This document shows, in pieces, positions 1-29,961 of a DNA stretch of 38,350 bases; the first letter of the stretch is position 1, and each line of letters opens with the position of its first letter. The notes beneath the pieces are model-generated. The model saw only the letters and a list, made by a program, of their open reading frames with translations, was not told the origin of the DNA and ran no database searches. This DNA comes from a virus: UHGV virus genome UHGV-0182861; one strand, 5' to 3'. The position numbers were made by a program, and so were the translations under genes.

Positions 1-235
1 GCTCTGAGCCCTCTCTCCCTAGCTTCCGCTCTTAAGACGGGGATCAAAGAGAGGTCAAACCCAAAAGAGATCGCGTGGATGCCCTGCCTGGGGTTGAAGC
101 GTTAAATCTAATCAGGCTAGTTTGTTAGTGGCGTGTCTGTCCGCAGCTGGCAAGCGAATGTAAAGACTGACTAAGCATGTAGTGCCGAGGATGTAGGAAT
201 TTCGGACGCGGGTTCAACTCCCGCCAGCTCCACCA
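1..235 (+). ncRNA. ssrA: tmRNA (ssrA), 3' portion; 5' end lies outside the window
   Basis: Sequence matches the recalled enterobacterial tmRNA 3' half, including the tag-reading-frame region and the tRNA-like end GGACGCGGGTTCAACTCCCGCCAGCTCCACCA ending near 235; followed by a hairpin terminator. Confidence 0.9.
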
Positions 236-343: not shown

Positions 344-1117
344 TTACAACTTAAAGAGTTTTGCTTGCCCTGGATTAACAGCTTCGACGTAGTTTTTGAC
401 CCCTATTCTGTGCGGCTCATAATTGCTTGAATAGAAATCAATCAGGAAGTCACTCATTTTCTGAGATGTGACTTTCATAACTCCCTTACTCAAAGTTAAA
501 TTAAACACGCTAATCTTTGACGATGGTGCCTGAGTTTTACTCATGTTGGCTTGATAACCAGATTTACGCATTGCCACTAGTGCTTCGTCGTAAGCCGCTT
601 GTAATTGGGCCAAATCGTTTGACGAGATGATCACATCATCCATAAACACACTTAGCTTGAGATCATGATGTTTGTTCAATCGGCGTAGTAAGCTACCAAA
701 ATAACTTTTATCTAAGCAGAGGGTTGCAAGTATTGGAGATTGAACAAAACCAAAAGGGAGGACATGCTTATGTGGACTATGGGACAAGTTTCTTACAGTT
801 GAAAATGTTGAGATTTCCCGCGCTTGAGAATAGGTGAAGTAGCTCTTTAGATCACGGGTGATACGACTACGGCTCGTTGACTGAAAAAATTGTTTAATAT
901 CAACAACGGCAAAAAAATCACTTTTTAAGTGTAATCTGGCAGCTTTAAGATGCCCACCAGTTCTTAGATGGTAAAAATAGAGTGGCGGAATCCACTTGTT
1001 TCTGACAGCCTGAAGTATCTTCCCTCCGACTTTACGTGCCTCAACGCTTGGGACATAAACCCAAACCCCGGGCTTAATCTCAAATTTATCTTCCCACCTT
1101 TGAACTTCTATTGTCAT
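344..1117 (-). CDS. Reverse transcriptase, compact retron-like (257 aa)
   Basis: Translation shows RT motifs: FFAVVDIKQFFQS (motif 1/2 with catalytic D), LPFGFVQSPILATLCL (motif B'), SVFMDDVII (Y/FxDD box) and G-Y-Q-A-N-M-S-K-T (motif D/E-like). About 40% GC versus about 53% for phage core. Poor SD; start overlaps upstream ORF by 32 nt. Confidence 0.75.
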   Translation of the reverse strand: MTIEVQRWEDKFEIKPGVWVYVPSVEARKVGGKILQAVRNKWIPPLYFYHLRTGGHLKAARLHLKSDFFAVVDIKQFFQSTSRSRITRDLKSYFTYSQAREISTFSTVRNLSHSPHKHVLPFGFVQSPILATLCLDKSYFGSLLRRLNKHHDLKLSVFMDDVIISSNDLAQLQAAYDEALVAMRKSGYQANMSKTQAPSSKISVFNLTLSKGVMKVTSQKMSDFLIDFYSSNYEPHRIGVKNYVEAVNPGQAKLFKL

Positions 1118-1828: not shown

Positions 1829-2929
1829 TCATTCCATTTCGAAATCATCAATCTTCACTTCAAGCTCCAGACTGGTCGTAAAACCGTTATCCGGGCTGAC
1901 AGTATGCGTCAGGGTGGTAATAGTCCATTCCGCATCATCTATCTGCTGTTTAAAGCCACTGACTTTCACTGGCATTTCCGTGTAGAGATCTGCCCGCCCT
2001 TCCGCCAGTTGTAGCGAGAATGACGCAACGCCGCGTTGCAGGCGTTCCCACTGCATTTTCGCCGCTCGTTCGGCGTTGCTCCGGTTGGCATAAGTGCGAT
2101 TAAGTACCAGCACGTTTTCATCCGTACCCACCAGGTAATCGCCCTGCTTCGCTTCCGGCTCTTTCTTCTGCTTCTTAGTTCTGCGCTTACGCTTCACCGT
2201 GGTGCTTTCTTTCTTCGCAGGTTCACGGGTATGCAACCAGCTGGCAATTACGCCCGTGTAGGCTCCGCGATCTGCCAGGGTAAAGCGGTGACTGTCGCCG
2301 TCCTTGCGTGTGATAGTGATCACTGGCAGTGGTTTACCAGTGGCGCTTTTGCCCTGCCCCTGCCGGATGAATAACAGATTGCCATTTTTCACCGACGCGA
2401 TGGCACCGTACTGTCGCGCCAGTCGCATCAGAAAACTGCCGTCACTCTCATTAGTCTGGTCTATATGCTCCACGGGCTTATCCGACAGCTCTTTACCCAG
2501 TGCCATCTTCAGCTTGTGCCGCGCGGCTATTTCCTTCACCACTTCCCCGATGGTGGTGTTATGCCACGATTTTTCACGGCGGGTATTCAGGGTTTCCCGA
2601 AAATCAGCACTTCGCGCCCGGATAGTCAGGCGGTCCGGTGCGCCAGTGTGTTCAATCTCGTCCACCGTGAATGCCCCTTTCGGGAAAAGCGGCTGCCCCT
2701 TCCAGCCCAGCGCCAGCGTAATGACCGCACCACGGCGCGGCAGCACGATTTTTCCATCGGCGTCGTCCAGCTCCAGATCAAGCTGGTCCGCTTCAAATCC
2801 CCGGTTATCCGTCAGCGTCAGCCCCATCAGGCGGTTGTCCAGCACAGTGGTGATATCCCTGCCTTCAATACTGATGCTGAATGCCGGAGTTTTGTTGCCT
2901 TTGTTAAGCAGTTCAGAGCTGAAATTCAC
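1829..2929 (-). CDS. D: Tail protein gpD (late control gene D)
   Basis: 366-aa product in conserved P2 position ogr-D-U-T; sequence resembles P2 gpD. Confidence 0.85.
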   Translation of the reverse strand: MNFSSELLNKGNKTPAFSISIEGRDITTVLDNRLMGLTLTDNRGFEADQLDLELDDADGKIVLPRRGAVITLALGWKGQPLFPKGAFTVDEIEHTGAPDRLTIRARSADFRETLNTRREKSWHNTTIGEVVKEIAARHKLKMALGKELSDKPVEHIDQTNESDGSFLMRLARQYGAIASVKNGNLLFIRQGQGKSATGKPLPVITITRKDGDSHRFTLADRGAYTGVIASWLHTREPAKKESTTVKRKRRTKKQKKEPEAKQGDYLVGTDENVLVLNRTYANRSNAERAAKMQWERLQRGVASFSLQLAEGRADLYTEMPVKVSGFKQQIDDAEWTITTLTHTVSPDNGFTTSLELEVKIDDFEME

Positions 2930-3411
2930 GACAGCAGCCCTCCCACCGTTTTACTGATATCGCTTAAGGCAGATGTTGCCGTTCCCTGCAGATTATTCAG
3001 TTGCGCACTGAGATCACCGAACATATCGGACAGGGATTCATCCACGCGTTTTAGCGACAGGGTGAACTCAATCCTGCGCGGCATACCGTCGCGGAAAAAC
3101 TCCGTTTTAGTCTGATTCAGTCCCTCAATCACATACATGCCGTAAATCGTGCCGCTGCCTTCAATCAGGGGCCATGCTTTCCCCTGTTCTGCCATCTGCT
3201 CCAGTGCCAGCAACGACAGCCTGCCGCCTGTTATTTCCGGCATAAGAACGCCAGAAAGCGTCAGCATGTCGTTATCCGGTCCCAGAAACTGCGTTGACGG
3301 GCGTCGGTTAACCCGGCTGTTAGCCGCATGTCGCCAGCTGCGCTGATACTGCAGCTCCTGATACGGCACGGTGCGCAGCATAAACACGTATAATCCCAGC
3401 ACCATCATCAT
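2926..3411 (-). CDS. U: Tail protein gpU
   Basis: N-terminus MMMVLGLYVFMLRT matches recalled P2 gpU; 4-nt overlap with D. Confidence 0.9.
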   Translation of the reverse strand: MMMVLGLYVFMLRTVPYQELQYQRSWRHAANSRVNRRPSTQFLGPDNDMLTLSGVLMPEITGGRLSLLALEQMAEQGKAWPLIEGSGTIYGMYVIEGLNQTKTEFFRDGMPRRIEFTLSLKRVDESLSDMFGDLSAQLNNLQGTATSALSDISKTVGGLLS

Positions 3412-6400
3412 GCGTCGTATCCCCCCTGATCGCTGTAGTTACTCCTGGCTTTTGCCTTCAGCCTGCGTTCACGTTCATCAAGCTGGCGGGCCACCTCCCG
3501 CGCAATATCCTGCGCACTTTGTCCTGGCTGCGTCTGAATGATGATCTGCGTCGGTGCCTCAATCCGTTGAACGGGCGGCACAGTGGCTGCACGACTCAAC
3601 ATCGCTTCGCCGCCTTTCGCGGGAAGTGCCAACGGATGCAACGGTGGAAGCTCTGCAGGCGCGGCAGCAACACCCATCATTCCGGCAACAACGGCAGCCA
3701 GTGCAGCTGTATTTCTCCGGCTGGTCACATTTGCCGGGCCGTTAACAATTTCCGGCCCGTTTTCACCGACGATGCCAAACTGCCCGCGCGGGATATAGCC
3801 GCCGCTGTCATACATCCCCGCAAAGCCATATCCCCATGACGGAAAACCACCCGATGGCATCATCACTTTACCGTCTGCATTCACCGTCGCAGGTTGCTGA
3901 CGCGTCACGCTTTCCGGCAGTTTCGCCTTTGCAGCCTCTTTACTGACAATGCCGAGTTTCTCCAGCAACCAGGAAACGCCAGATTTCAGGGAGTCCAGCG
4001 GATGCATGACCATATTCAGCCCTTCCGCCAGTGCCTCCCCGAATCTCCGCCCCATTGCCGCTGCACTCTGCAGTTCGGCAGAGGTCGACTTAACGGGCGT
4101 CAGCAGATCAGTAAACCAGCCCCACAGCGCCTGCACTTTGTCGCCAATCCACTGGAACACAGGCTTAAGCGGTTCGAACGCTGCACTGATGGGACCTGCC
4201 GCCGCTTTGAATCCTTCCACCACGCCACCGAGAAATGCGGTGATGGGTTGCCAGTATTTCCAGACAACCAGTGCCACACCCGCCAGTGCAGCAACCACAA
4301 GACCTATCGGACTGAGCAGAGCACCTAACAGACCAGATACGGCATACAGGGCAACGCGCAACATCGCCAGTGGACCAGATGCCAGTACTCGCAGCACCGT
4401 GCCTGTGGCAGCCAGCCCGCCGCGTAGTGCTGCCAGTGGATTCATAAACATCACAGCAACCGCACGTAAACCGGATAATCCAGACCGCAACAGTGCAACC
4501 GGCGCATCTGCTACAGTTTTCAGGACATTTCCCGTCAGTGATGCCGTGCGGTGCAAAGACGACAACGGCGCAGTAAGTAAACCCGCTGCGTTGCCCGATG
4601 AAGCAAGCCCGCGTCGCAGCAGTGCCAGTGGAGCGCCAGCCAGCCAGGACAACGCGCTGCTGGTTCGAGTTACTGCTGCCGTAACGGAAGGTAACGTTTT
4701 GATACCCAGCACAGAGAATCCCAGACGGATCACTGCCAGCGGCCCCAGCACTGCAGCCAGCGCCACCGCTAAGGTGCCGAGGCCTACGGTAACCGCAGCC
4801 ACAACAGCCGCTACTTTCATCAGTGTGCCTGTCAGTTCCGGGTTAGCTTCCACCCAGCGGCGCAACGCCCCCGTAATGCTTTTCACCGTGTACAGAATAT
4901 CCATCAGCGGCTGGCGCAGCGTTTCGCCCAGGCTGCTGAAGGTGTTCTGCGCTCCGGTTTTAACCAGCAACCACTGAGCAGAAAGTGAGTCCTTGTTGAT
5001 GTCGGATTCTTTCTGCATGGAACCGAGCGCATCATTGCCCGCTGTCAGTTTTAGCTGGCGCTGCAGTTCCGGCAGGTTGTTTGCCAGTTTCGCCGCGTCA
5101 TCACCAAACTCTTTACCAAACAACATGGTCATGGCAGACAGACGCTTGTCCTGCGGCAGTGCGTTCACCTTCTCCAGCACACGCTGGATAGTTCCCATCG
5201 CATCCTTCGTCATCTGCTTTTCAATCACTTCAGGATTGAGTTTCAGCAGATTCATCCCTTCAAAGAAACTCTTGCTTTGCATGGTGGCAATGGACAATTC
5301 ACGCACCATCGCGTTTGCTGCACTGGCTGCAACCTCCGGCGCAGCGCCCAGTGTCAGAAAGGTGGAACCCAGTGCCGCCGCTTTACGATAATCCAGACGG
5401 TCAGCCACACCGCCCAGACGTTGCATGACATCAATGATGTCCGCCCCTTTTGACATGGCGTTATCATCCAGATAGTTCAGCGCATCGCCGAGCTGTTCAA
5501 TATTACGGGTAGGTATTTTGTAGAGCTGGGCGATTTTCCCCAGACTTTCTGACAGTTCATCCGCTGGCAGCTCAAAGGCTATTGCCGCCTTTGCCGCCGT
5601 ACTGGCGAAGGCCAGCAGGTCACGTTTCTGGTCTTCCCAGCTGTCGTCAGGGTTTGCGACGTTCATACGCGCACCACCTTCAACCAGTGCAGCGAAGTCC
5701 ACCGCACCGTTTTCCATCGGCAACTGTTCGCTGGCAGCCTTGATGGCATCCTGCATTTCATAAAAACGTGCAGTGCGGTTGCCATTATCGTCACGCAGAC
5801 CATTGACCTGCTTTGCCACACCTTTCATGGCATCTTCCATGCTGGTATAGCTTTTTACTGCCGCCATCACTGGTGTCCCCATTGCCAGCCCTGCAGCCGT
5901 GGTGGTGGCTCCGGCTCCTGCAATACGATCACGCACCTCCAGCGAACGGGCATAACTGGCACGCGCCGCATTCATCCTGCGCTGAGCTTCCCCCAGTCGC
6001 TTCAGCCGCGCCTCCTGTTTTGACAATTCCTGGTTATAACGTGATGTTTCACGGGCTAAACGGGCAGTTGCTCCCGCATCATCTTTCGCAGAAATTCCCG
6101 CCCGATACAGTTCTGCACGCACAAGCGCCGTTTGCTTCTGCAAATATTTTTGTTGTTCTTCCAGGCGTTGGACTGCCAGCGTTTGCCGACCTAAAGCCAC
6201 AAGGTGCCGTTGTGATGGTTGTTCCATCGCTTCCAGCTCAGAACTAAGCAAATTTGCCTTCTGTCTGGCATAGTTCAGCCTGTCGCCTAACCTTTTGTTA
6301 TCGGCCTGCAGCTTGCGAAATTTTTCCAGGCTGTTACCCGCCTGATTGAGTTGCTTTAATGCGTCACGGGAGTTTCTGATTGCGCCAGCCAGCTCTTTCG

Positions 6401-7493: not shown

Positions 7494-8666
7494 TTACGCG
7501 CTGACCTGGCTGGAGAAATTCACCAGGTACTGATCGGTGATGCGCTGACGCAGCATCAGGTTTTCAAGTGGCGGCACTGGCGTGTAGTCGTAGTCGATGG
7601 TGAGCTTCCCGGCTTTCAGAGTATCTTTGTCGTTCACCGACTCATCCAGCCAGCAATCACCACCAATGAGATAGCCCTGACTGACCAGGCTGCGCATTTT
7701 GGCGCGGATACCTTCGATAATGTCGCGGGCCAACGACGGGTTCAGCGGTTTGTCCACCGCCCACATATGCGCTTCTGCCATTGTGTCCATAAGTACCTGC
7801 GCCGTGCGGGTGTAGTTTTCGAAGGCAAAGAGCGGGTCATCACTCAGGCAGCGGGAACCCCAGAAGCGGAAACCGTCTTTGCGGATAAGGGTGGTGACGT
7901 CGTTCTGGTTCAGCAGTCCCGCATCTGTTGCCGTGTCCTGCAGATCCCAGAACACATCAGCAGAAATTCCGGTGACACCGTTAACGCCCACGTTGGACAG
8001 GCTTTTGTGCCATCCGGTCTGCTCGTCAATTTTAGCGCGCAGACCAAGCGCACGGGCGGTGGCATAAGCCGTTGCTTCGGCATTCAGCACCGTGTCCCAG
8101 CCAGTAAAGTCGGGCCAGATCAGCATCCCTTCGCGCTGGCTGAAGTTTTCACGGTAAGTGATCGCCTCCTGTACCGTCTTGCAGCCATACGCTGACAGGT
8201 AAGCAAACCCACGCAGGCTTTGCGCCACGCTCAGCAACTCAGTCGCTACCGCCTTGGTGTCGTGGCCTGGCACGCCGAGAATGCGCGGTTTAACGCCGAG
8301 CTGTGACTGGGCAGATAACAGGGCTTTCATGCCTGTTTTTTTACCTTCAGCAGTCACTGCGCCGATGATATTGGTCGTGGTTTCTTCTTCCGTTTCACCC
8401 TGCGGCACACGCACAACAATGGTCACGGGTTTTGCCTGGTCAGCGATGGCATCCAGCGAACGGGCCAGTGTGCCGGACTCACCCGCTTTACCACTGGCGG
8501 TAAGCACATCAGTGATCAGCACGGGTTTATTAAGAGGAAACATTTTTGCATCGGCATCATCGCCCGTGCAGACCATGCCCACGATGGCGGTGCTCACCGT
8601 GGTAATGGATCGGGTGCCTTCGTTGACTTCAACAACGCGCACCCCGTGGTGGTAATCCTGAGCCAT
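7494..8666 (-). CDS. FI: Contractile tail sheath protein gpFI
   Basis: 390-aa product [19 protein letters not shown]... resembles P2 FI. Confidence 0.9.
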
Positions 8667-8742: not shown

Positions 8743-8760
8743 TGTGTCGTTATTCACACA
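8743..8760. promoter_or_regulatory. Late promoter activator site (TGT-N12-ACA) upstream of FI
   Basis: tgtGTCGTTATTCACaca in the FI upstream region; matches the Ogr-site dyad pattern of P2 late promoters. Confidence 0.55.
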
Positions 8761-8808: not shown

Positions 8809-9375
8809 TCAGGGGGATTCATTGCTCTTATTTGCCGGAAATTTTCTATAAATGGTAGAAACGCCTACATCAAAAATCAGTGCAATACGCTGTCTTGATT
8901 CTCCGGCCTCGAGTAAACGCCCAATCTGTGCCCACTGTTCGGTGGTCAACTTAGGACGGCGTCCACCTACTCTGCCTTTGGCACGAGCTGCAGCCAGCCC
9001 TGCCATGGTACGTTCAACTATCAGTTCGCGTTCCATTTCAGCCAGGACCCCTATGACATGAAAAAAGAAACGGCCCATTGGGGTGCTGGTATCAATACTG
9101 TCAGTCAGGCTTCGGAAATTCACGCCACGCTGACGCAACTCTTCTATCAGTGTAACAAGATGCCGCATACTGCGCCCCAACCTGTCCAGCTTCCAGACAA
9201 CCAGAGTGTCTCCTGCCGATAGTGTCCTGAGCAGTTTTTTAAGCCCCGGTCTGTCGGACTTAGTGCCACTGATTTTATCCTCAAAAATCCGCTCACATCC
9301 CGCGCAGTTCAGTGCATTACGTTGCAAATCGGTGTTCTGGTCATTTGTTGACACGCGTACATAGCCAATAAGCAT
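8809..9375 (-). CDS. Serine DNA invertase (Gin/Hin/Cin/Pin family)
   Basis: MLIGYVRVSTNDQNTDLQ...GDTLVVWKLDRLGRS...C-terminal HTH; start trimmed to MLIGY with SD AGGGGA upstream. Confidence 0.9.
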   Translation of the reverse strand: MLIGYVRVSTNDQNTDLQRNALNCAGCERIFEDKISGTKSDRPGLKKLLRTLSAGDTLVVWKLDRLGRSMRHLVTLIEELRQRGVNFRSLTDSIDTSTPMGRFFFHVIGVLAEMERELIVERTMAGLAAARAKGRVGGRRPKLTTEQWAQIGRLLEAGESRQRIALIFDVGVSTIYRKFPANKSNESP

Positions 9376-9430
9376 GATCAATCCCCTGAATAAAAACCGT
9401 GGATGATGCCAGTTAGCCATTATCTCTGCA

Positions 9431-9456
9431 TTTTCATAAACGTTGGTTTAGGAGAA
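9431..9456. repeat. Invertase crossover site, left (inverted copy)
   Basis: Reverse complement ttctcctaaaccaacgtttatgaaaa matches 21 of 26 positions of the site at 11307..11332; both resemble gix/hix dyad half-sites around a central AA. Confidence 0.7.
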
Positions 9457-9801
9457 GCGGCGAAAAGGGATGTGGGCACAGGAGATAATCAGATACCGGA
9501 TATGGGAGCATTCGCTTCTGGTTCGGGATGGTTCAGGCTACCAGGTGGATATATTGTTCAGTTTGGCACTTTTTCAGGAAACACGACCCGCTTTATCAGT
9601 GGACACTTCCCTATACCATTCCCTAATCAGCCGATGGTTTCAGTCAGTGTTATGTCTGATGCCGTTCAGTCAGACCCGTCGAATCCTGCCCCGCAGGTTT
9701 TGTCTGTAAATTTTGAACATATCAGTAATTCAGCGTGGCGTGTGGCAACCAGTGATATCTCACAGCAATACAGATTCAGTTATATTTCGATAGGACGGTA
9801 G
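9457..9801 (+). CDS. Alternative tail-fiber C-terminal segment (H'), promoterless, expressed only after inversion
   Basis: In frame through the crossover site; both H and H' encode G-L-G-E at the site, as expected for Mu S/S'-type switching. Confidence 0.65.
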   Translation, partial: AAKRDVGTGDNQIPDMGAFASGSGWFRLPGGYIVQFGTFSGNTTRFISGHFPIPFPNQPMVSVSVMSDAVQSDPSNPAPQVLSVNFEHISNSAWRVATSDISQQYRFSYISIGR

Positions 9802-9803
9802 AA

Positions 9804-10244
9804 ATGCAGAAATATATTTTCAGTGCCGATAAAAATGCGTTTTTCCCTGTGGAGCTTAAAATCGCTTATCAGGAATCCGGCGAATGGCCCGATGATGGAA
9901 TCGAAATTGACGACACTGTTGCCGCCGAATTTATGAAGGAAGCACCAGAAGGAAAATACAGATGTGTCATCGACGGAATGCCTGCATGGATTGATATTCC
10001 ACCGCCAACTCATGAGGAACAAATTGCCGCAGCCGAACTGGAAAAGCAGCAATTGATTAATCAGGTCAACGAATACATAAACAGTAAGCAATGGCCTGGT
10101 AAAGCAGCGATTGGTCGCCTGAAAGGTGAGGAACTGGCGCAATATAATTTGTGGCTGGATTATCTGGACGCACTGGAACTGGTTGATTCCTCCAGTGCTC
10201 CAGATATTGAATGGCCTACGCCTCCGGCAGTTCAGGCCAGATGA
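9804..10244 (+). CDS. Alternative tail-fiber assembly chaperone (G')
   Basis: 146-aa ORF immediately after H'; C-terminal region (LWLDYLDALELVDSSSAPDIEWPTPP) parallels gpG C-terminus (LNAVLDYIDAVTATDTSTAPDVIWPELP). Confidence 0.7.
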   Translation: MQKYIFSADKNAFFPVELKIAYQESGEWPDDGIEIDDTVAAEFMKEAPEGKYRCVIDGMPAWIDIPPPTHEEQIAAAELEKQQLINQVNEYINSKQWPGKAAIGRLKGEELAQYNLWLDYLDALELVDSSSAPDIEWPTPPAVQAR

Positions 10245-10818
10245 CATCCGGTGCGGTGCTGGTATCTGTTGCCGTCACCGCGTCAATGTAATCCAGCACG
10301 GCGTTAAGTCGGGTTGTTTCTGCCTGCGTCAGCTTCCGCCCGGCCCGTAATTTCAGTTGAATCAGACTGATGGAAGCCATTGCTGCATCAATCAGTGACT
10401 GGCGCTGTGCTTCTGCCGCTTCTACTGCGGCGCTATGCTGTGCCTCAGTATCCGTCACCCATTTCTCACCATCCCATTTATCATATGGCGTTAACGGGGC
10501 GATAGTGGTTGTATTTTCAGGGTAATCACCCGGAGCTGTGATTTCTTTCGATTCTCCTGTTTCGGTGCTATAGATGATTTCACCGCGATGGTCTGGTACA
10601 TATTCCCATGAGTTAAAATCTGCAGAACGGCAGATTGCATAACCAGCTTTATGTGTAACTGGTGCATCTAAACAAGAACATGCCGGGATACCGACGCCAA
10701 CGGCAAGATATTCTGTTGATGATGAAATGTATTCCCGTGTCGTGTTGTCATAGTTATAGACGGTAATATCACCCGCTACTGTGGCAATAAATTCACTGTT
10801 TAATTTTGCCTGTGTCAT
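10216..10818 (-). CDS. G: Tail fiber assembly protein gpG
   Basis: 200-aa ORF directly downstream of H with 1-nt overlap. Confidence 0.85.
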   Translation of the reverse strand: MTQAKLNSEFIATVAGDITVYNYDNTTREYISSSTEYLAVGVGIPACSCLDAPVTHKAGYAICRSADFNSWEYVPDHRGEIIYSTETGESKEITAPGDYPENTTTIAPLTPYDKWDGEKWVTDTEAQHSAAVEAAEAQRQSLIDAAMASISLIQLKLRAGRKLTQAETTRLNAVLDYIDAVTATDTSTAPDVIWPELPEA

Positions 10819-12368
10819 TATGCAGCCCTCACGATGTAGTTAAATGCAATGTTGCGCGGGCGGGTTTCAGTGCTAATATTCGCTGCATTGTCAGAAGCAA
10901 CCCCACGAGTGCTGATAGCTCTTACTGCTGAAGGTAGGCTTTGAGGCTCCCGGTCAGTATAGGCAATCCCCCCATCCCCTCCAGTTACTAGCGGACCATA
11001 ATTCCCGGTCTGACCAATAGTTGACGATGTTGTATTTGAACCTGTCCAGAACTCTTGGTTATGTGAGTGGTCTCTGAGTGAATGGCCTTGAGATGAAAGC
11101 AGCGCACGCCCGTTGTCGATACCACGACTATCATCCCATCCACGGATAAACTCACCGCGTAAATCAGGTAATTTATTTGTTGGATAAGCCTTTGCCAGTT
11201 CCGGGTATTCTTCAGCAGAAAATGCCGCACCGTTGCATTTCAGCCAGCCTGTTGGCGGTGTGGCTGAAGGCCATGGAACAGGCACACCAACAGGTAATGC
11301 AGAGCCTTCTCCCAAACCAAGGTATGTGAGAAGACCAGTTACATCCTTTCCACTCAAATTAGTCAGCGTATTGTCCAGCGGTTGTTTACCTGCCAGTGCA
11401 TTAAGCATTGTCGTGGCAAAGTTCGGGTCATTCCCCAGCGCCGCCGCCAGTTCGTTCAGTGTATCCAGTGCCGCAGGTGCAGACCCCACCATTGCCGCAA
11501 TCGCCGATTTCACAAATGCCGTGGTGGCAATTTGTGTATTGTTGACCGACTGTGCCGCAGTAGGTGCGGTTGGCGTTCCGGTGAGTGTCGGACTCGACAG
11601 CGGCGCTTTCAGTGCCAGCGCATTGTTAATGGTGGTACTGAATTTCGGATCATTGTTAATGGCTGCGGCTATTTCTTTCAGCGTGTCCAGCGTGGCTGGC
11701 GCACCATTAATAAGAGCCGTCAGAGCCGCCTGAACAAACTCGGTGGTCGCAATCTGCGTGGTGTTATTCCCTGCTGCTGGCGTTGGCGCTTTGGGTGTCC
11801 CGGTAAACGTCGGACTTTCTTTGGGTGCATACTGTGAATGCGGGTCCGGTGCGGCAAGATGTTTTGCCATCTGATCATCCGCGTACACCTTCAGCTCCAG
11901 TGCCTTGTCATCCACATACTTGCGGGTTGCCAGCACTACAGCAGGGTCGATTTTCAGGGTGATATTGTCCGTGCTGCTGGTAATCAGCACCATGCGCACG
12001 GTCTGAGTGCGCCCGCTACCTTCAGCCAGTTGCGGCTTATAGCTTTCCGGGCAGTTGCCCACGGCAATCAATGCCCCGGACTCATCAAACAAGCCCACTT
12101 CACGTATCCACCAACCGCCCTCGTTTTCAGGGATCACCTGTTCGGCAATAATCTGACTACTGTTCTGCGGGTCGATATAGAGCATATTCAGCGCAGCCCG
12201 GCGTTTCTCATTTACCAGTGCAGTCTGCTTTGAGTCTGGCGTTGGCAATACTCCGCCGCCATCGCCGACCGCCATATGGGTAATTTTTAGCGGCACACCG
12301 AGCGCGGCGGCGCTGGCAAGTTTCGCCGCGCCAATATCCGTCAGCAGGGTATAAAATTTTGTGCTCAT
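10818..12368 (-). CDS. H: Tail fiber protein gpH (constant N-terminus plus currently fused variable C-terminus)
   Basis: 516-aa product MSTKFYTLLTDIGAAKLASAAALG... resembles P2 gpH N-terminus; contains an internal tandem repeat and the crossover site. Confidence 0.9.
   Translation of the reverse strand: MSTKFYTLLTDIGAAKLASAAALGVPLKITHMAVGDGGGVLPTPDSKQTALVNEKRRAALNMLYIDPQNSSQIIAEQVIPENEGGWWIREVGLFDESGALIAVGNCPESYKPQLAEGSGRTQTVRMVLITSSTDNITLKIDPAVVLATRKYVDDKALELKVYADDQMAKHLAAPDPHSQYAPKESPTFTGTPKAPTPAAGNNTTQIATTEFVQAALTALINGAPATLDTLKEIAAAINNDPKFSTTINNALALKAPLSSPTLTGTPTAPTAAQSVNNTQIATTAFVKSAIAAMVGSAPAALDTLNELAAALGNDPNFATTMLNALAGKQPLDNTLTNLSGKDVTGLLTYLGLGEGSALPVGVPVPWPSATPPTGWLKCNGAAFSAEEYPELAKAYPTNKLPDLRGEFIRGWDDSRGIDNGRALLSSQGHSLRDHSHNQEFWTGSNTTSSTIGQTGNYGPLVTGGDGGIAYTDREPQSLPSAVRAISTRGVASDNAANISTETRPRNIAFNYIVRAA
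11307..11332. repeat. Invertase crossover site, right (within H coding sequence)
   Basis: ttctcccaaaccaaggtatgtgagaa with dyad half-sites TTCTCCCAAACC / TTCTCACATACC. Confidence 0.7.
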
Positions 12369-12970
12369 GGATTCACTCTCATTGTGTCAATAACATGGAC
12401 CGCCCCGCCTTCATGCGCGGTGCCGCCAGAAATAATTGTTTCGTTGATATACGGATAGATCGTGATTTCTTCGCCAAGATAGCTGGCGGCCCCCACCCAA
12501 TGCGGACCGCTAGTCTGCAGATTGATGGACATGCCGATCATGTGACGGCTACATGGTTTGGCATCGCTTATCAGCCGCTCAAGTTCCAGATAGGTATCTT
12601 CAGTGATGCCCTGGTCCTGCACGCCGATATCCAGGCGAAACGTGCCCGGTGTTTCTCCGGTCTGCCACCACTCAATAATGCGGATCAGGAATCCGAACGG
12701 TTCCACCACCCGCCGCACGGCACTGGTAGTTCCTTTATGCTGATGAATATAAAAAGCATCCTTCACTACATGGCGTTTGACGCTTTCTGTCCAGCCCTCG
12801 TCCCAGCGATCCACAGAGAACGCCCAGGCGAGATAAGGCAGGAAGCTGACCGGACAGGTAGCCGGATTCCACAAGTCACGCAGCGGCACCTGCAGATCAG
12901 AAATCCCGCTACAGGTTTGCGCCAGTCGGCGCTCCAGTGAAGTTGAACCCGGTGGCAGCAGACTATTCAT
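12365..12970 (-). CDS. I: Baseplate protein gpI
   Basis: MNSLLPPGSTSLERRLAQTCSG... matches recalled P2 gpI. Confidence 0.9.
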   Translation of the reverse strand: MNSLLPPGSTSLERRLAQTCSGISDLQVPLRDLWNPATCPVSFLPYLAWAFSVDRWDEGWTESVKRHVVKDAFYIHQHKGTTSAVRRVVEPFGFLIRIIEWWQTGETPGTFRLDIGVQDQGITEDTYLELERLISDAKPCSRHMIGMSINLQTSGPHWVGAASYLGEEITIYPYINETIISGGTAHEGGAVHVIDTMRVNP

Positions 12971-13871
12971 CCGTTCCTCCGTTGGTTACGCTCCACTGCG
13001 TACATGATGCCGCCTGTGTTTTGTTCAGGACCACATCCGCCAGCGGAGAAGCCAGTTCCACACGTTGAACACCCTCAACATGCAGAGCAGCAAAGATGGC
13101 GCTACGGCGAATATCCCGACCAAGCCTCGTCTGGCTGGCAATGTACTTCTGCAGACTGGCTTTTGCCGCTGCCATTACCGGCTCTGCTTCCGGCCCCGGA
13201 TAGAGAAAAATGGTGGCTTCCACGCGGTACGGGATGATTTCTGCGCTGCGAACCGTCAGACGGTCAGCCACCGGGCGGACGTTCTCACTGTTCAGAGCTT
13301 TTTCCACCACGTCCAGCAGGTCTTTTTCTGCCGTTCCGTCGCCTTCGCGGCTCAGGACAGTCAGCACCACCTCTGCAGGTGCCGGGCTGGTTGCACTGGC
13401 ATCCGCCACCCGACCGTCGGCGCTTCGGGCATGAAATTCATAAGCTGCAGTTGGCCCCGCAACAGAAAGCCCTTCAAAGGCTGCAGGCACACGCAGGCGT
13501 AACGCTTCATCGCTTTCCATCACAGCTGCAACGGGCGGCACAGCATCATTATCAGCAGGCGTCACCGTCAGGCGTGTCACGTTGTAGTTGGCAGCGAGCT
13601 GGTCCAGATCGCTCCCTATGGCATAAGCCACCATCACCGCCTGCGCGGCTTCGTTAATGCGCTGGCGCAGAAGCAACTCACGATAAGCATTCTCCTGCAA
13701 CAATTTGGTGACGGGTTCAGATTCCAGTTCCAGGGTACGCATCACAGCCTCCTGTTCATCTTTCGGATGAAGCGCCACAAATTCGGCCTTGCGTTCGGCA
13801 AGCAGCGTCTCAAAGTCCGGCACATCCACAATCTGCGGCGCAGGCAACTGCGAAAGGTCAATCACTGCCAT
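12963..13871 (-). CDS. J: Baseplate protein gpJ
   Basis: Start trimmed to internal Met (MAVIDLSQLPAPQ) of the 315-aa track ORF; P2 order W-J-I. Confidence 0.85.
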   Translation of the reverse strand: MAVIDLSQLPAPQIVDVPDFETLLAERKAEFVALHPKDEQEAVMRTLELESEPVTKLLQENAYRELLLRQRINEAAQAVMVAYAIGSDLDQLAANYNVTRLTVTPADNDAVPPVAAVMESDEALRLRVPAAFEGLSVAGPTAAYEFHARSADGRVADASATSPAPAEVVLTVLSREGDGTAEKDLLDVVEKALNSENVRPVADRLTVRSAEIIPYRVEATIFLYPGPEAEPVMAAAKASLQKYIASQTRLGRDIRRSAIFAALHVEGVQRVELASPLADVVLNKTQAASCTQWSVTNGGTDE

Positions 13872-14217
13872 TCTCTGCTCCTGTTGATACGGAAAGGGAA
13901 ACAGGCACACCGTTATTACGCCGCCCGGTCAGCTCCACCACCATTGAACCGTCAAAATTGCTGTTAATGGTGATGGAATCCAGCGTCAGCCGTGGCTCCC
14001 AGCGACTCAGCGCCACATACACTGCCGACATGACCTGCAGGCGTAATGCCGGATTTTGTGACTGGTCTATCAGTGCCGACAGCAGAGAACCATATTCCCG
14101 ACGGGCAATACGGCTACCCTGCGGTGTCAGCAGAATGTCCCGCACCGACTGGCGCAGATGGTCAATATCAGTAATGGCTTTGCCGCTGGTATTATTCATC
14201 CCGCTATAAAGCGTCAT
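13858..14217 (-). CDS. W: Baseplate wedge protein gpW
   Basis: 119-aa product in P2 position V-W-J. Confidence 0.85.
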   Translation of the reverse strand: MTLYSGMNNTSGKAITDIDHLRQSVRDILLTPQGSRIARREYGSLLSALIDQSQNPALRLQVMSAVYVALSRWEPRLTLDSITINSNFDGSMVVELTGRRNNGVPVSLSVSTGAENGSD

Positions 14218-19831: not shown

Positions 19832-20665
19832 TCAGCAATTGGTCAGAGTGTCAGCGGGGGCGTTACCGCCTGTTGCACGCTGGCGGTAGTCCTGGCGGCT
19901 GTCTTCTTGACTCAGCTTATTCACCAGTTCGTTAAAGGCGGTCTGCTGTGCCTGCAGGGCAGTCTCCAGCTCAGACAGGCGTTCTTCCTGCTCAGACAGG
20001 GATTTTTCGGTGCGCACGCTCAGGTTTTGCTGCTCAGTGGCGACCAGCTCCACGGCCTTATGCACATCAGAGAATCGGGCATCATCGGACTGCTCTTTTT
20101 TGGTGAACAGCGCCGTGACGCGGGCAAACAGGGACGGTTTGTCATCCTGGATTTCTTCCAGTTCGATCACCGTTTCCTCTGCAGCGGTAAAGAGATTGGC
20201 AGGATTCTGCTTGCGGTTTGCCAGCGGGTTATGGGCTGCACTGGCGCTGAATGTCAGCATTTCCGTACCCAGACTGGCGGGATCATCAGTGGCAGCCAGG
20301 CCGACCAGGTAGGCTTTGCCCGTATCAGCAAACTTCGGGCTGACTTCCATAGAGGTGAATAATTTCTGTCCTTTTTTCACCAGTTCCACCAGGGACTCCG
20401 TTGGCTCAACGTCGGCATACAGCGCCATCTTGCCTGCCAGCGGGCCTTCCGTGATTTCTTCAGCAAACAGCGCCGTCACCTTGCCGTAGCGGTTAAAGGT
20501 GCTGTCCGGCAGATAAGACTTGATGTGCTCAAGGTTAATCAGCGCGGTATACACCGCCGGGTTGTAGCTGGCTGCCATCTGTTCCAGCCATTCACGCTGG
20601 ATTTCGCGTCCGTCGGTAGTGGCACCTTCCACCCCGATGCGAAAACGCTTTGCTTTCACTGTCAT
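19832..20665 (-). CDS. O: Capsid scaffolding protein gpO
   Basis: 277-aa product divergent from P across a late promoter region. Confidence 0.9.
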   Translation of the reverse strand: MTVKAKRFRIGVEGATTDGREIQREWLEQMAASYNPAVYTALINLEHIKSYLPDSTFNRYGKVTALFAEEITEGPLAGKMALYADVEPTESLVELVKKGQKLFTSMEVSPKFADTGKAYLVGLAATDDPASLGTEMLTFSASAAHNPLANRKQNPANLFTAAEETVIELEEIQDDKPSLFARVTALFTKKEQSDDARFSDVHKAVELVATEQQNLSVRTEKSLSEQEERLSELETALQAQQTAFNELVNKLSQEDSRQDYRQRATGGNAPADTLTNC

Positions 20666-20743
20666 GAGCCGTGCTCCGTTAGAAAAAACTTACTGGAGCC
20701 TTATGGTTGCGGTGATCGGGGCAGTGAAACAATGCGCGGTATT

Positions 20744-20761
20744 TGTACCGACAACCACACA
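20744..20761. promoter_or_regulatory. Late promoter activator site (TGT-N12-ACA) in divergent O/P promoter region
   Basis: tgtACCGACAACCACaca between the O and P start codons. Confidence 0.55.
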
Positions 20762-20807
20762 AACCGCAGGCGGAGAAAGCCTTTATTCAAGGCTGTAGGT
20801 TTGTGCC

Positions 20808-22574
20808 ATGAACACCACACTGACACCCGCAGATCTCGATCCCCGTCGGCAGGCCATGCTGCTGTACTTTCAGGGATACCGCGTAGCCCGCATTGCTGAA
20901 ATGCTGGGCGAGAAAGTTGCAACCGTTCACAGCTGGAAAAAACGCGACAAGTGGGGTGACTATGGGCCGCTGGACCAGATGCAGCTCACCACCGCCGCAC
21001 GCTACTGCCAGCTCATCATGAAGGAGCACAAAGAAGGGAAAGATTTCAAAGAGATTGACCTGCTGGCGCGCCAGTCGGAACGCCACGCGCGGATCGGCAA
21101 GTTTAACAATGGCGGCAACGAAGCCGACTTAAACCCTAACGTCGCCAACCGTAACAAAGGCCCGCGCCGTCAGCCGGAAAAGAATGTTTTCACCGATGAG
21201 CAGATTGAGAAGCTGGAAGAAATCTTCCATTCCTCCATGTTCAACTACCAGCGCCACTGGTGGGAAGCCGGAAAAACCAACCGCATCCGGAACCTGCTGA
21301 AGTCACGCCAGATCGGCGCGACCTTTTACTTTGCCCGTGAAGCCCTGATTGACGCCCTGCTTACCGGACGTAACCAGATTTTCCTTTCCGCCAGCAAGGC
21401 ACAGGCCCACGTCTTTAAGCAGTACATCATCGACTTCGCCAAAGAAGTGGAGGTGGAGTTGAAAGGCGATCCGATGGTGCTTCCTAACGGGGCCACGCTT
21501 TACTTCCTCGGCACCAATGCCCGCACGGCCCAGAGTTATCACGGCAACCTGTATCTGGATGAATATTTCTGGATACCGAAATTCCAGGAGCTGCGCAAAG
21601 TGGCTTCCGGTATGGCTATTCACAAAAAATGGCGACAAACCTATTTTTCCACGCCATCCAGCCTGACACACAGTGCTTATCCGTTCTGGTCCGGTGCGCT
21701 GTTCAACCGTGGGCGCAACAAGGCCGACAAGGTGGACATCGACCTGTCCCACAGCAATCTGGCCCCCGGTCTGCTGTGCGCAGACGGGCAATACCGCCAG
21801 ATAGTCACCGTGGAAGATGCGGTGCGCGGCGGCTGTAACCTGTTCGACCTTGACCAGTTGCGCATGGAGTACAGCCCGGACGAATACCAGAACCTGCTGA
21901 TGTGCGAGTTTGTGGACGATCTCGCGTCCGTGTTCCCGCTCAGCGAGCTGCAGGCGTGCATGGTGGACAGTTGGGAAGTCTGGACCGACTTTCATGCTCT
22001 GGCCCTGCGCCCGTTTGGCTGGCGCGAAGTGTGGATCGGTTATGACCCGGCAAAAGGTACGCAAAACGGCGACAGCGCCGGGTGCGTGGTGGTGGCTCCG
22101 CCAGCCGTGCCGGGCGGTAAGTTCCGCATTCTTGAGCGTCACCAGTGGCGCGGGATGGACTTCCGTGCCCAGGCGGACGCCATCAAAAAACTGACTGAAC
22201 AGTACAACGTGACCTATATCGGTATCGACTCGACAGGTGTCGGTCACGGGGTTTATGAGAACGTAAAAGCGTTCTTTCCTGCCGTCCGGGAGTTTGTCTA
22301 CAACCCCAACGTTAAAAACGCCCTGGTACTCAAGGCCTACGACATTATCAGCCACCGCCGTCTGGAGTTTGACGCCGGGCACACCGACATTGCGCAGTCC
22401 TTTATGGCAATCCGTCGCGCCACCACCGCCAGCGGCAACCGCCCAACCTATGAAGCCAGCCGCAGCGAAGAAGCCAGCCATGCCGATCTGGCCTGGGCAA
22501 CAATGCACGCACTGTTTAACGAACCGCTGCAGGGCGAATCCGCCAATACCAGCAATATTGTGGAGATTTTTTGA
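20808..22574 (+). CDS. P: Terminase large (ATPase) subunit gpP
   Basis: 588-aa product aligns closely with recalled P2 gpP (MNTTLTPADLDPRRQAMLLYFQGYRV...MCEFVDD...SRSEEASHADLAWATMHAL). Confidence 0.95.
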   Translation: MNTTLTPADLDPRRQAMLLYFQGYRVARIAEMLGEKVATVHSWKKRDKWGDYGPLDQMQLTTAARYCQLIMKEHKEGKDFKEIDLLARQSERHARIGKFNNGGNEADLNPNVANRNKGPRRQPEKNVFTDEQIEKLEEIFHSSMFNYQRHWWEAGKTNRIRNLLKSRQIGATFYFAREALIDALLTGRNQIFLSASKAQAHVFKQYIIDFAKEVEVELKGDPMVLPNGATLYFLGTNARTAQSYHGNLYLDEYFWIPKFQELRKVASGMAIHKKWRQTYFSTPSSLTHSAYPFWSGALFNRGRNKADKVDIDLSHSNLAPGLLCADGQYRQIVTVEDAVRGGCNLFDLDQLRMEYSPDEYQNLLMCEFVDDLASVFPLSELQACMVDSWEVWTDFHALALRPFGWREVWIGYDPAKGTQNGDSAGCVVVAPPAVPGGKFRILERHQWRGMDFRAQADAIKKLTEQYNVTYIGIDSTGVGHGVYENVKAFFPAVREFVYNPNVKNALVLKAYDIISHRRLEFDAGHTDIAQSFMAIRRATTASGNRPTYEASRSEEASHADLAWATMHALFNEPLQGESANTSNIVEIF

Positions 22575-23299
22575 TGCCCCCAATCCCAACTAACCTCATG
22601 ACTATCGCGGGACTTCCGGTGGATAGCTCTTTCTTTGCTTACCAGTATGAGTGGAACACTAGCCCAAAGAGTAGAAACCGTGTACTCACAAAAATGCGCC
22701 AGGCAGGCGCGAATTTCTTTTTTTCCTATGAAGCCCTGAACGATGCACTGCATACCGGGCGTAACCAGATTTTCCTCTGCTGCAGCACAGCATCTGCCCT
22801 GACAGTCAAAACCTATATGTCAGCCTTTATAGATCAGGCCGCAACCTGGACACACCTTGGGAAAATAAAATCAGGTAAAGCGCATCTGGAACTACCTAAC
22901 GGTGCGGTCATTTATTTTATCGGGCCGAAAAGTCTCGCCGCCGCGCTCCATGGAAACGTCTATGTGTCAGAGTATGCCTGGGCGGACTCCCCGAAAAATA
23001 TGATTGCGCTCGCCAAAAGCCTGTCCATGCACGCGCGCTATCACGCTACCTACTACACCACCCCAAGCCCCAGCCCGGAAGCATGGCGGGAATACAAGAA
23101 GCTGATTGCCCGCAACAGCACAACCAGCATGATTTTTACCGCTGATGACGCTGCAGCATCCGGGGCAACGCTCGCAACCGGAGCCGCGCTCTTTGATGAT
23201 GAATGGCTTAATGACATGAAAAAAGAGTTATCAGCAGAGGACTGGAAAATGCTGTTTATGTGCGAATGGCCCCAGACTGACAAGGAGCAGGCGGCATGA
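22571..23299 (+). CDS. Terminase ATPase-domain paralog (242 aa), inserted between P and Q
   Basis: Aligns to gpP residues about 145-400 (FAYQYEW/FNYQRHW, RQAGANFFFSYEALNDALHTGRNQIFL / RQIGATFYFAREALIDALLTGRNQIFL, TYYTTPS / TYFSTPS, LFMCEW / LLMCEF) but lacks the gpP N-terminal domain and the C-terminal nuclease; start overlaps P stop (TGATG), stop overlaps Q start (ATGA). Confidence 0.75.
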   Translation: MMPPIPTNLMTIAGLPVDSSFFAYQYEWNTSPKSRNRVLTKMRQAGANFFFSYEALNDALHTGRNQIFLCCSTASALTVKTYMSAFIDQAATWTHLGKIKSGKAHLELPNGAVIYFIGPKSLAAALHGNVYVSEYAWADSPKNMIALAKSLSMHARYHATYYTTPSPSPEAWREYKKLIARNSTTSMIFTADDAAASGATLATGAALFDDEWLNDMKKELSAEDWKMLFMCEWPQTDKEQAA

Positions 23300-29107: not shown

Positions 29108-29961
29108 GCACGTACTCCGTACACGGCAGAACTGTCCACGCCACGCGAATAATCAAATCCCACCCAGCAGCGCGGCCCGGAAACAGCAATGATTTCTGTT
29201 GCTGATTTACCCTCTCCAGCTGCCACACCGATGTTGCGTTTTGCCTTGATGTAGTGGTGAGTAAAATTGCGATACAGCGAACGGATCAGGGATGTGTCAC
29301 TGTTAGAAACAATGACCGGATGTCCTTCTGATGACCGATGTTCAAGAACGGATGCCAGGTGATACTGGTCATCTTCAGTGAAGCCGTCAGTGTGATAACC
29401 GGAAAACGTGCCGTCATACGGCGGATCGCAATACACCACATCCCCCGCCTTCAACATCGCCAGCGTTTCATCAAAGCTGGCGCAGATAAACGTTGCCCGC
29501 TGGGCTTTTTCTGCAAATGCGCGAATTTCTTTTTCAGGGAAATACGGATTTTTATAATTACCGTAGGGAATGTTGAAATGCCCGCTCTTGTTATAGCGAC
29601 ATAAACCACGGTAACCGTGACGATTGAGATACAGGAAATATACCGCTTTCATGAAATCAGTAATTTCAGTGGAGTAATTAAACTCCTGCCTTATGTTGTA
29701 ATAAGCCACCTCCCTGTTTGCGATCTCAAATAAAACTCTGGCGCGAGATATAAACGATTCACAATCAGCGGCAACCTTTTTATAGAGGTTGATTAAATCA
29801 GGATTAATATCCGCAACCAGATAGCTGGGGTAATCCGTCTCCATCATCACAGCACAGGAACCCGCGAAAGGTTCAACCAGTCGCGGGCCAGCAGGAAGGT
29901 GTTTTTTCAGTTCGGACATAATGGCGGTTTTATTTCCCGCCCATTTCAGGATGGTGCTCAT
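29104..29961 (-). CDS. dam: DNA adenine methyltransferase (Dam family)
   Basis: Trimmed to [11 protein letters not shown]; contains the DPPY catalytic motif and FAGSCAV SAM-binding motif; start overlaps upstream stop (ATGA). Confidence 0.85.

What the first reader, a model, noticed from the sequence alone, without database searches (positions are those of the whole stretch)
8809..11332. Gin/Hin-type invertase and 1.9-kb invertible tail-fiber segment
A serine invertase lies beside a segment bounded by inverted 26-bp dyad sites. One site is inside H at the constant/variable junction (encoding GLGE), the other precedes a silent alternative H' C-terminus and G' chaperone in opposite orientation. 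Inversion would swap the receptor-binding end and its chaperone, as in Mu G and P1 C segments, giving two host ranges. This occupies the position of the P2 Z/fun hotspot.
Basis: partly seen in the sequence, partly recalled or inferred. Interest (0 to 1): 0.45.

Follow-up and report, generated by a model that had tools for sequence, protein, structure and literature searches.

The report
Invertible tail-fibre switch in P2-like prophage
A P2-like prophage carries a Pin/Gin-type DNA invertase that flips a 1.9-kb segment to swap the tip of its tail fibre and the matching chaperone; this is real and both states exist in public genomes, but it is a well-known kind of phage host-range switch.

Summary
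A 188-aa serine invertase (8809-9375, minus strand) is 86% identical to e14 PinE, 77% to P1 Cin and 74% to Mu Gin. It lies beside a 1,878-bp segment (9443-11320) bounded by two 26-bp imperfect-dyad sites (9431-9456 and 11307-11332). The sites are inverted, share the same central dinucleotide, and are the only such sites in the window.

The right site lies in tail-fibre gene H at the codons for LGLGE. The segment holds the active H tip (Collar domain) and chaperone G on one strand. On the other strand it holds a silent, unrelated H' tip (gp53-like_C) and chaperone G'. Flipping in silico gives an in-frame 468-aa H' followed by G'.

That exact 468-aa protein, and both predicted recombinant junctions, occur in independent public assemblies. 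One contig matches the flipped window with 1 mismatch in 9,407 bp. So inversion happens at the predicted crossover.

The module sits between G and the FI late promoter, where P2 carries Z/fun. Fis/enhancer dependence and different host ranges are inferred, not shown. This is an ordinary, already described kind of system (e14 P, Mu G and P1 C segments; P2-like prophage inversions).

The parts
8809..9375 (-). Serine DNA invertase gene (188 aa; catalytic Ser9; Resolvase N-terminal domain plus HTH_7)
   Evidence: Pfam Resolvase 2e-52 and HTH_7 1.5e-15. Matches the Mu Gin structures 3uj3 and 4m6f at E 1e-92 over residues 1-184. 85.6% identical to e14 PinE, 77.5% to P1 Cin and 74.1% to Mu Gin.
9286..9357 (-). 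Counterpart of the recombinational enhancer (nt 19-90 of the invertase ORF). It has two Fis-like 15-bp cores at 9339-9353 (TGTCAACAAATGACC) and 9291-9305 (GCGCGGGATGTGAGC), with centres 48 bp apart
   Evidence: The P1 record annotates the Cin enhancer at nt 19-90 of cin. The same degenerate Fis-type pattern occurs at the same ORF positions, 48 bp apart, in this gene, Mu gin and P1 cin. Function is inferred by homology, and coding constraint confounds the conservation.
9431..9456 (.). Left (invertase-proximal) 26-bp crossover site, with core TT at 9443-9444
   Evidence: It differs by 1 nt from the pinE-proximal site of e14. It occupies the same position relative to the invertase start as gixR of Mu.
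9443..11320 (.). Invertible segment (1,878 bp)
   Evidence: Homology blocks to flipped-state relatives change strand inside the two sites. An in-silico flip of exactly this interval matches contig L014 with 1 mismatch in 9,407 bp.
9445..9801 (+). Silent alternative H' variable C-terminus (118 aa, Gp53-like_C domain)
   Evidence: Pfam PF21882 2.3e-09. It is in frame with the H constant part after inversion. It shows no similarity to the active tip.
9804..10244 (+). Silent alternative chaperone G' (146 aa, Caudo_TAP)
   Evidence: Pfam PF02413 2.9e-34. Its C-terminal half is 70% identical to e14 TfaP. After inversion it starts 2 nt after the H' stop.
10216..10818 (-). Active tail-fibre assembly chaperone G (200 aa, Caudo_TAP)
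   Evidence: Pfam PF02413 9.7e-33. 90.5% identical to e14 TfaE.
10818..11320 (-). Active H variable C-terminus (about 166 aa, Collar domain)
   Evidence: Pfam Collar 4.3e-15. 59% identical to e14 StfE. Related to the T4 gp37 and short-fibre collar regions in the PDB. Its DNA is about 90% identical to the stf genes of HK97 and HK106.
11307..11332 (.). Right 26-bp crossover site inside H, with core AA at 11319-11320. It encodes LTY-LGLGE
11321..12368 (-). H constant part (aa 1-350; Phage_tail_fib N-terminal domain and shaft)
   Evidence: Pfam PF12571 1e-64. Residues 181-340 are 80% identical to the constant region of P1 S.

Best explanation
This is a working two-state, Pin/Gin-type site-specific inversion switch for the tail fibre of a P2-like (Peduoviridae) prophage integrated at ssrA.

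The 188-aa serine invertase binds the two inverted 26-bp sites. By homology with Hin, Gin and Cin, it is probably activated by Fis bound to an enhancer inside the 5' end of its own gene. It makes 2-bp staggered cuts at the central TT/AA, rotates the subunits and religates. This inverts 9443-11320.

The late operon (V-W-J-I-H-G, minus strand) always transcribes the constant 350 codons of H. Whichever cassette is joined at the right site supplies the receptor-binding tip and the chaperone that folds it. In the state seen in the window the cassette is the Collar-type tip plus the TfaE-like G. In the flipped state it is the gp53-like tip plus the TfaP-like G'. A lysogen population therefore releases a mixture of two virion types that presumably recognise different receptors.

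Shown here: the parts, the reading frames, and the existence of both states with crossover inside the sites. Inferred: Fis/enhancer dependence, how the invertase is expressed, and different host ranges.
For: Invertase identity and intact catalytic and regulatory residues:
- The sequence shows Ser9, Arg42, Lys46, Lys47 and Arg50, and Q-x-x-R-L in helix 1 of the DNA-binding domain.
- These correspond to Hin R43, K47, K/R48, K/R51, Q151, R154 and L155, which PMC3798978 describes as specific to Fis/enhancer-dependent invertases.

Sites: only two are present and none is expected by chance.

Enhancer: a counterpart lies at the same ORF position as the annotated P1 enhancer.

Frames: the in-silico flip gives an in-frame 468-aa H' followed by G'.

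Both states exist in public data:
- The exact 468-aa protein is in public databases, on 14 contigs by the cluster table and 24 contigs read. The exact 516-aa form is on 238 contigs.
- The flipped-state contigs show the order I, H(468), G', then silent G and a Collar fragment, then invertase and sheath.
- L014 matches the flipped window with 1 mismatch in 9,407 bp, and L008 and L012-L015 match at 99.7-99.99%.
- Both predicted recombinant junctions (56 and 61 nt) are present exactly in six loci and absent from same-orientation loci.
- Among complete E. coli genomes, 54 hold the cassette in the window orientation and 43 in the flipped orientation.

Crossover position: the half-site polymorphisms place it within positions 13-19 of the site, which includes the central dinucleotide.
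Against: No experiment is available. There are no read-level data from a single culture showing both states together. No sigma-70-like promoter for the invertase was detected by the simple scan. Conservation of the enhancer region is confounded by coding constraint. The receptors of the two tips are unknown. The exact-protein counts (238 against 14-24 contigs) are unequal, which may reflect sampling of clones or a biased equilibrium.
Confidence: 0.93

Rival explanations
1. This is a frozen relic. The invertase or its sites are now inactive, and the two orientations seen in databases derive from old events in diverged lineages.
For: No single-culture data are available. All 12 near-identical Klebsiella phage records are in one orientation, although they may be clonal.
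Against: Flipped-state contigs are 99.7-99.99% identical to the window across 9.4 kb, down to 1 mismatch, so the inversion is very recent relative to divergence. The catalytic Ser9 and the invertase-specific residues are intact. Both sites keep matching core dinucleotides.
Confidence: 0.03
2. The inversion is produced by general (RecA-type) homologous recombination between the inverted repeats, not by the invertase.
For: Inverted repeats can in principle recombine homologously.
Against: The repeats are only 26-27 bp long with 5 mismatches. The longest perfect match around the crossover is 7 bp, far below what RecA-dependent exchange needs (established knowledge). The crossover maps to the 7-bp interval containing the central dinucleotide, as expected for a serine invertase.
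Confidence: 0.02
3. The switch works, but the two states do not give two useful host ranges. One cassette could be non-functional, or both could bind the same receptor class.
For: The silent tip is short (118 aa). Its receptor is unknown. Automatic annotation treats the silent pieces as separate small genes.
Against: Both tips have recognised fibre-tip domains, each paired with an intact Caudo_TAP chaperone with no stops. The tips are unrelated in sequence. Both states are common in nature. In the homologous Mu and P1 systems, the two states give different host ranges (established knowledge; PMC4272514 discussion).
Confidence: 0.1

Closest known systems
e14 cryptic prophage Pin invertase / P segment (E. 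coli K-12: stfP-tfaP / tfaE-stfE-pinE)
   Same: It has the closest sequence match. The invertase is 85.6% identical. The invertase-proximal site differs by 1 of 26 nt. G is 90.5% identical to TfaE, the active tip is 59% identical to StfE, and the C-terminal half of G' is 70% identical to TfaP. The gene order is the same, with J-like and I-like genes upstream. Inversion of the e14 segment in culture is documented in PMC4272514.
   Different: e14 is a defective remnant in which stfE, jayE and other genes are pseudogenes. Here the module sits in an apparently complete 35-kb P2-like prophage. The silent tip here is a gp53-like domain, which did not match StfP in the local comparison.
Phage Mu Gin / G segment (S-U / U'-S')
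   Same: The architecture and polarity are the same: constant fibre part, then the two cassettes, then the invertase with its 5' end facing the proximal site at the same distance. The invertase is 74% identical. Fis-like cores sit at the same ORF positions.
   Different: The G segment is 3 kb. The central dinucleotide of gix differs (one search shows TC/GA against AA/TT here). The variable tips and chaperones are essentially unrelated: no hits for the tips, and only 31% over 73 aa for G' against U'.
Phage P1 Cin / C segment
   Same: The invertase is 77% identical. The enhancer annotated at nt 19-90 of cin matches this gene, and the second Fis-like core differs by 1 nt. The cix sites have the same AA/TT core. 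Residues 181-340 of the H constant part are 80% identical to the constant part of P1 S.
   Different: In P1 the 3' end of cin abuts cixL and cin is transcribed opposite to S. The C segment is 4.2 kb. The variable parts are unrelated.
Invertible loci in P2-like prophages (EPEC E2348/69, PMC4272514) and the P2-like Z/fun hotspot with DNA invertase (bioRxiv 10.1101/2024.10.15.618418); also Fels-2 Fin of Salmonella LT2 (own knowledge; Kutsukake 2006 appears only in the reference list of PMC4272514)
   Same: The phage family, the locus between the tail-fibre genes and the sheath gene, and the two-variant inversion of the fibre C-terminus are all the same. Close relatives are already annotated with a DNA invertase and two tail-fibre assembly genes (KP12, Cartapus, RefSeq E. 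coli).
   Different: One EPEC locus is a three-site shufflon with four variants. Here there are only two sites. The near-identical GenBank phage records (Kp4845-2 and others) are unannotated.

Membership tests
Fis/enhancer-dependent serine DNA invertases (Hin/Gin/Cin/Pin, 'Din' family) | Serine recombinase of about 190 aa, with an N-terminal catalytic domain carrying the active-site Ser9/10 and a C-terminal HTH domain | tested here: met
   Pfam Resolvase 2e-52 plus HTH_7 1.5e-15. Aligned end to end with the Gin structures, with Ser9 present.
Fis/enhancer-dependent serine DNA invertases (Hin/Gin/Cin/Pin, 'Din' family) | High sequence identity to characterised members | tested here: met
   85.6% to PinE, 77.5% to Cin and 74.1% to Gin.
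Fis/enhancer-dependent serine DNA invertases (Hin/Gin/Cin/Pin, 'Din' family) | Subclass-specific residues: basic helix-B residues (Hin K47, K/R48, K/R51) and helix-1 residues of the DNA-binding domain (Hin Q151, R154, L155) | tested here: met
   The sequence has K46, K47 and R50 (Gin numbering, one less than Hin) and ...AQIGRLLE.... The criteria are taken from PMC3798978.
Fis/enhancer-dependent serine DNA invertases (Hin/Gin/Cin/Pin, 'Din' family) | Two 26-bp imperfect-dyad recombination sites in inverted orientation with identical 2-bp cores | tested here: met
   The left site is 25/26 identical to the e14 site next to pinE.
Fis/enhancer-dependent serine DNA invertases (Hin/Gin/Cin/Pin, 'Din' family) | Cis-acting enhancer with two Fis sites 48 bp apart, located in the 5' part of the invertase gene | tested here: met
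   A sequence counterpart is present at ORF nt 23-37 and 71-85, with centres 48 bp apart, at the same positions as in gin and cin and inside the annotated P1 enhancer. Only the sequence was tested, and coding constraint is a confounder.
Fis/enhancer-dependent serine DNA invertases (Hin/Gin/Cin/Pin, 'Din' family) | The reaction requires Fis and supercoiling and yields inversion only | not testable with these tools
   This needs in-vitro or fis-mutant experiments.
Fis/enhancer-dependent serine DNA invertases (Hin/Gin/Cin/Pin, 'Din' family) | The segment is actually found in both orientations, with crossover at the site centre | tested here: met
Invertible tail-fibre host-range switches (Mu G, P1 C, e14 P) | The constant N-terminal fibre part lies outside the segment, and two alternative C-termini, each followed by its own assembly chaperone, lie inside in opposite orientations | tested here: met
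   The gene layout of flipped contigs agrees.
Invertible tail-fibre host-range switches (Mu G, P1 C, e14 P) | The two states confer different receptor or host specificity | not testable with these tools
   The tips are unrelated in sequence. No receptor data are available.
P2-like phages (Peduoviridae), tail module with cargo hotspot between G and FI | Gene order J-I-H-G-[cargo]-(late promoter)-FI-FII-...-T, as in P2 where the cargo is fun(Z) | tested here: met
   Window ORFs and domains. P2 annotation. 99.9% identity to Peduoviridae records. A TGT-N12-ACA dyad lies 85 nt upstream of FI.

The most novel reading that the evidence does not exclude
The 26-bp crossover sites may also act as portable junctions at which whole tip-plus-chaperone cassettes are exchanged between unrelated phages (P2-like, e14, lambdoid HK97-type stf), possibly through invertase-mediated intermolecular recombination.

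Evidence for this: in the relative Kp4865-2, homology to the window stops exactly inside both sites and a different Gly-rich tip follows ...LTYLGLG. In Cartapus, homology likewise resumes at the right site (11306), while on the left it runs about 50 nt past the left site, to 9505.

This is an old idea for tail-fibre mosaicism. It would be only modestly new if it were demonstrated for this family.
Probability: 0.3. Interest if true: 0.3.

Novelty: already known. Interest (0 to 1): 0.12.

Why it matters
The finding matters for annotation and for phage biology in Klebsiella, E. coli and Salmonella. The prophage can release two virion types. Automatic annotation splits the silent cassette into spurious small genes, such as 'gp53-like domain-containing protein' and a 180-aa Collar fragment. 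Host-range predictions made from one assembly therefore miss the second receptor-binding tip. It does not open a new question, because the mechanism and its occurrence in P2-like phages are established.

Tried and rejected
- An exact 43-nt flipped-junction search in genome contigs (species representatives) found nothing. The same pattern found two IMG/VR contigs.
- The INPHARED phage collection holds no flipped copy of this cassette. It holds only same-orientation copies and stf homologues.
- A simple sigma-70 scan found no promoter for the invertase on the minus strand, so how the invertase is expressed is left open.
- I looked for a third crossover site, which would make the locus a shufflon like the EPEC P2-like locus or p15B. 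None was found even at 8 mismatches.
- I compared the variable tips with Mu S/S', P1 S/S' and the P2 H C-terminus and found no similarity. The resemblance to Mu and P1 is therefore architectural, not a cassette-level one.
- Kutsukake 2006 (PMC1347348, Fels-2 Fin) could not be read. That comparison rests on my own knowledge.
- The 203-aa ORF starting at 9420 was rejected as the invertase start, because it runs across the left site and gene callers and homologues support 188 aa.
Full report
**Context.** The window is a P2-like (Peduoviridae) prophage. It is 99.9% identical over the queried 3.7 kb to a set of unannotated Klebsiella pneumoniae phage records (Kp4845-2 and others, 35,561 bp). It is integrated at the 3' end of ssrA. 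The 3' part of tmRNA lies at 1-235, and a direct repeat of at least 47 nt of that end lies at about 35222.

On the minus strand the tail genes run as follows:
- J, 12963-13910
- I, 12365-12970
- H, 10818-12368
- G, 10216-10818
- the region in question
- sheath FI, 7494-8666
- tube FII and the tape-measure gene

**Observation.** The ORF at 8809-9420 (-) is a serine recombinase. Its plausible start is the ATG at 9375, giving 188 aa that begin MLIGYVRVST. It has Pfam Resolvase (2e-52) and HTH_7 (1.5e-15) domains. It aligns over residues 1-184 with the Mu Gin crystal structures at E 1e-92, and Ser9 is present.

The two sites are:
- left, 9431-9456: TTTTCATAAACG TT GGTTTAGGAGAA
- right, 11307-11332: TTCTCCCAAACC AA GGTATGTGAGAA

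They are 21/26 identical in inverted orientation. Each is an imperfect dyad (9/12 and 10/12). Their 2-bp cores are complementary on the same strand, so they match after inversion. A consensus search finds only these two sites in 38 kb, against none in 100 shuffles. Relaxing to 8 mismatches adds nothing. The locus is therefore a two-site switch and not a shufflon.

**Anatomy of the segment.** The right site lies inside H at ...LTY-LGLGE-GSALPV.... The left site is followed on the + strand by GLGE-AAKRDVG.... Inside the segment:
- The minus strand carries the active H tip (Collar domain, 4.3e-15) and G (Caudo_TAP, 9.7e-33).
- The plus strand carries a silent tip (Gp53-like_C, 2.3e-09) and G' (Caudo_TAP, 2.9e-34).

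The two tips show no detectable similarity to each other. G and G' share 34% identity over their C-terminal 80 residues. Inverting 9443-11320 in silico gives an in-frame 468-aa H', followed 2 nt later by the ATG of G'.

**Does it invert?** Yes, on population evidence.
1. The exact in-silico 468-aa protein is already in public databases, named 'phage tail protein' from Klebsiella pneumoniae and E. coli. The cluster table lists it on 14 contigs. The exact 516-aa form is on 238 contigs.
2. Contig look-up read 24 contigs carrying the 468-aa gene. The four loci shown have the order I, H(468; Phage_tail_fib plus Gp53-like_C), G'(146), then on the opposite strand G(200) and a 180-aa Collar fragment, then invertase(188), sheath and tube.
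3. These contigs are collinear with the flipped window at 99.7-99.99%. L014 has 1 mismatch in 9,407 bp. Against the unflipped window they break into three blocks, with the middle block on the other strand and the breakpoints inside the sites.
4. Both predicted recombinant junctions (56 and 61 nt) occur exactly in six loci. They are absent from the window and from same-orientation relatives.
5. Among 5,426 complete E. coli genomes, 54 hold at least 80% of the region in the window orientation and 43 in the flipped orientation.

The five positions at which the two sites differ place the crossover within positions 13-19 of the 26-bp site, an interval that contains the central dinucleotide. Only 7 bp of perfect identity surround the crossover. 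This argues against RecA-type recombination and for cleavage at the core by the serine invertase.

**Mechanism by homology.** The invertase is 85.6% identical to PinE of e14, 77.5% to P1 Cin and 74.1% to Mu Gin. It keeps the residues that PMC3798978 describes as specific to Fis/enhancer-dependent invertases. These are Hin K47, K/R48 and K/R51, which are K46, K47 and R50 here, and Hin Q151, R154 and L155, which appear here in AQIGRLLE.

The P1 record annotates the Cin enhancer at nt 19-90 of cin. At the same ORF positions this gene, gin and cin each carry two Fis-like 15-mers with centres 48 bp apart. Here they are TGTCAACAAATGACC and GCGCGGGATGTGAGC, and the second differs from cin by 1 nt. 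Enhancer function is inferred only, because these nucleotides also encode the conserved VSTNDQ...AGCE peptide.

The polarity is Mu-like. The 5' end of the invertase gene faces the proximal site at the same distance as gin faces gixR, and the invertase is on the same strand as H and G. No consensus promoter for the invertase was found.

**Comparison with known systems.** The closest characterised system is the e14 P segment:
- its proximal site is 25/26 identical;
- TfaE is 90.5% identical to G;
- StfE is 59% identical to the active tip;
- TfaP is 70% identical to the C-terminal half of G';
- J-like and I-like genes lie upstream in the same order.

Mu and P1 share the architecture but not the cassettes. 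However, residues 181-340 of the H constant part are 80% identical to the constant part of P1 S.

In P2 itself, fun(Z) lies between G and the F-operon promoter. Here the silent cassette and the invertase occupy that interval, and a TGT-N12-ACA dyad lies 85 nt upstream of FI.

The literature already reports two things. Inversions have been detected experimentally in P2-like prophages of EPEC and in e14 (PMC4272514). The P2-like Z/fun hotspot often holds a DNA invertase accompanied by inversion of adjacent genes (bioRxiv 10.1101/2024.10.15.618418). Close relatives are annotated accordingly.

**Verdict.** The remaining inferences are Fis dependence, invertase expression and distinct host ranges. 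The system is an ordinary, already known kind, so interest is low.

Noticed in passing
window 1-235 (+) and repeats at 191-~240 and 35222-~35270: The 3' part of tmRNA (ssrA, Rfam 148 bits) lies at the start of the window. Its 3' end (at least 47 nt) is repeated about 35 kb downstream. These look like the att sites of the prophage integrated in ssrA.
   Followed up: partly
window 344-1117 (-): A 257-aa reverse transcriptase (Pfam RVT_1 2e-21; best PADLOC hit retron RT_VI 6.6e-18) sits between ssrA/att and the tail gene D end of the prophage. It is retron-like cargo and is short for a retron RT. No msr/msd RNA was looked for.
   Followed up: partly
window 24371-25804 (-): A 477-aa bSEFIR/TIR defence protein (PADLOC bSEFIR 9.6e-103; Pfam SEFIR and TIR_2) lies next to the portal gene, in the P2 old/tin hotspot position.
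   Followed up: partly
window 29104-30021 (-): A Dam-type (D12 class) orphan adenine methyltransferase (1.5e-76) lies immediately downstream of the replication gene A homologue at 26693-29107.
   Followed up: no
window 33569-35089 (+): A 506-aa ORF lies between the prophage integrase (32543-33556) and the att repeat. It has no Pfam or PADLOC hit and is unidentified cargo.
   Followed up: no
window 35390-36661 (+): A second, P4-type tyrosine integrase lies just beyond the downstream ssrA repeat. This suggests another island integrated in tandem at ssrA.
   Followed up: no
L001 (OK490418 Kp4865-2) 2255-3816, against window 9454-11308: In a related Klebsiella phage, homology to the window stops inside both crossover sites. 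H continues after ...LTYLGLG with a different Gly-rich tip (573 aa in total). An ORF that I recognised from its sequence as IS1 InsB-like lies in between. Only the right site is recognisable at up to 3 mismatches. This looks like cassette replacement at the sites, and the switch there may be disabled.
   Followed up: partly
window 10818-11320 (active H tip): The DNA of the active tip is about 90% identical to the side tail fibre (stf) genes of the lambdoid phages HK97 and HK106. This is an example of tail-fibre mosaicism across phage families.
   Followed up: no
window 8743-8760: A TGT-N12-ACA dyad (TTGTGT...ACACAA on the minus strand) lies about 85 nt upstream of the FI start. The spacing matches the Ogr-type activator site of the P2 F-operon late promoter, so the invertase gene ends just upstream of that promoter.
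   Followed up: partly
window 10216-10244: The convergent genes G (-) and G' (+) overlap by 29 nt at their 3' ends. No clear intrinsic terminator separates the late operon from the antisense of the silent cassette and the downstream invertase gene.
   Followed up: no
NZ_CP063214.1 (E. coli ERP001), hits H66 and H98: One E. coli genome carries two related P2-like prophages, with the cassette in opposite orientations at 20432-24087 and 4984959-4988618.
   Followed up: no
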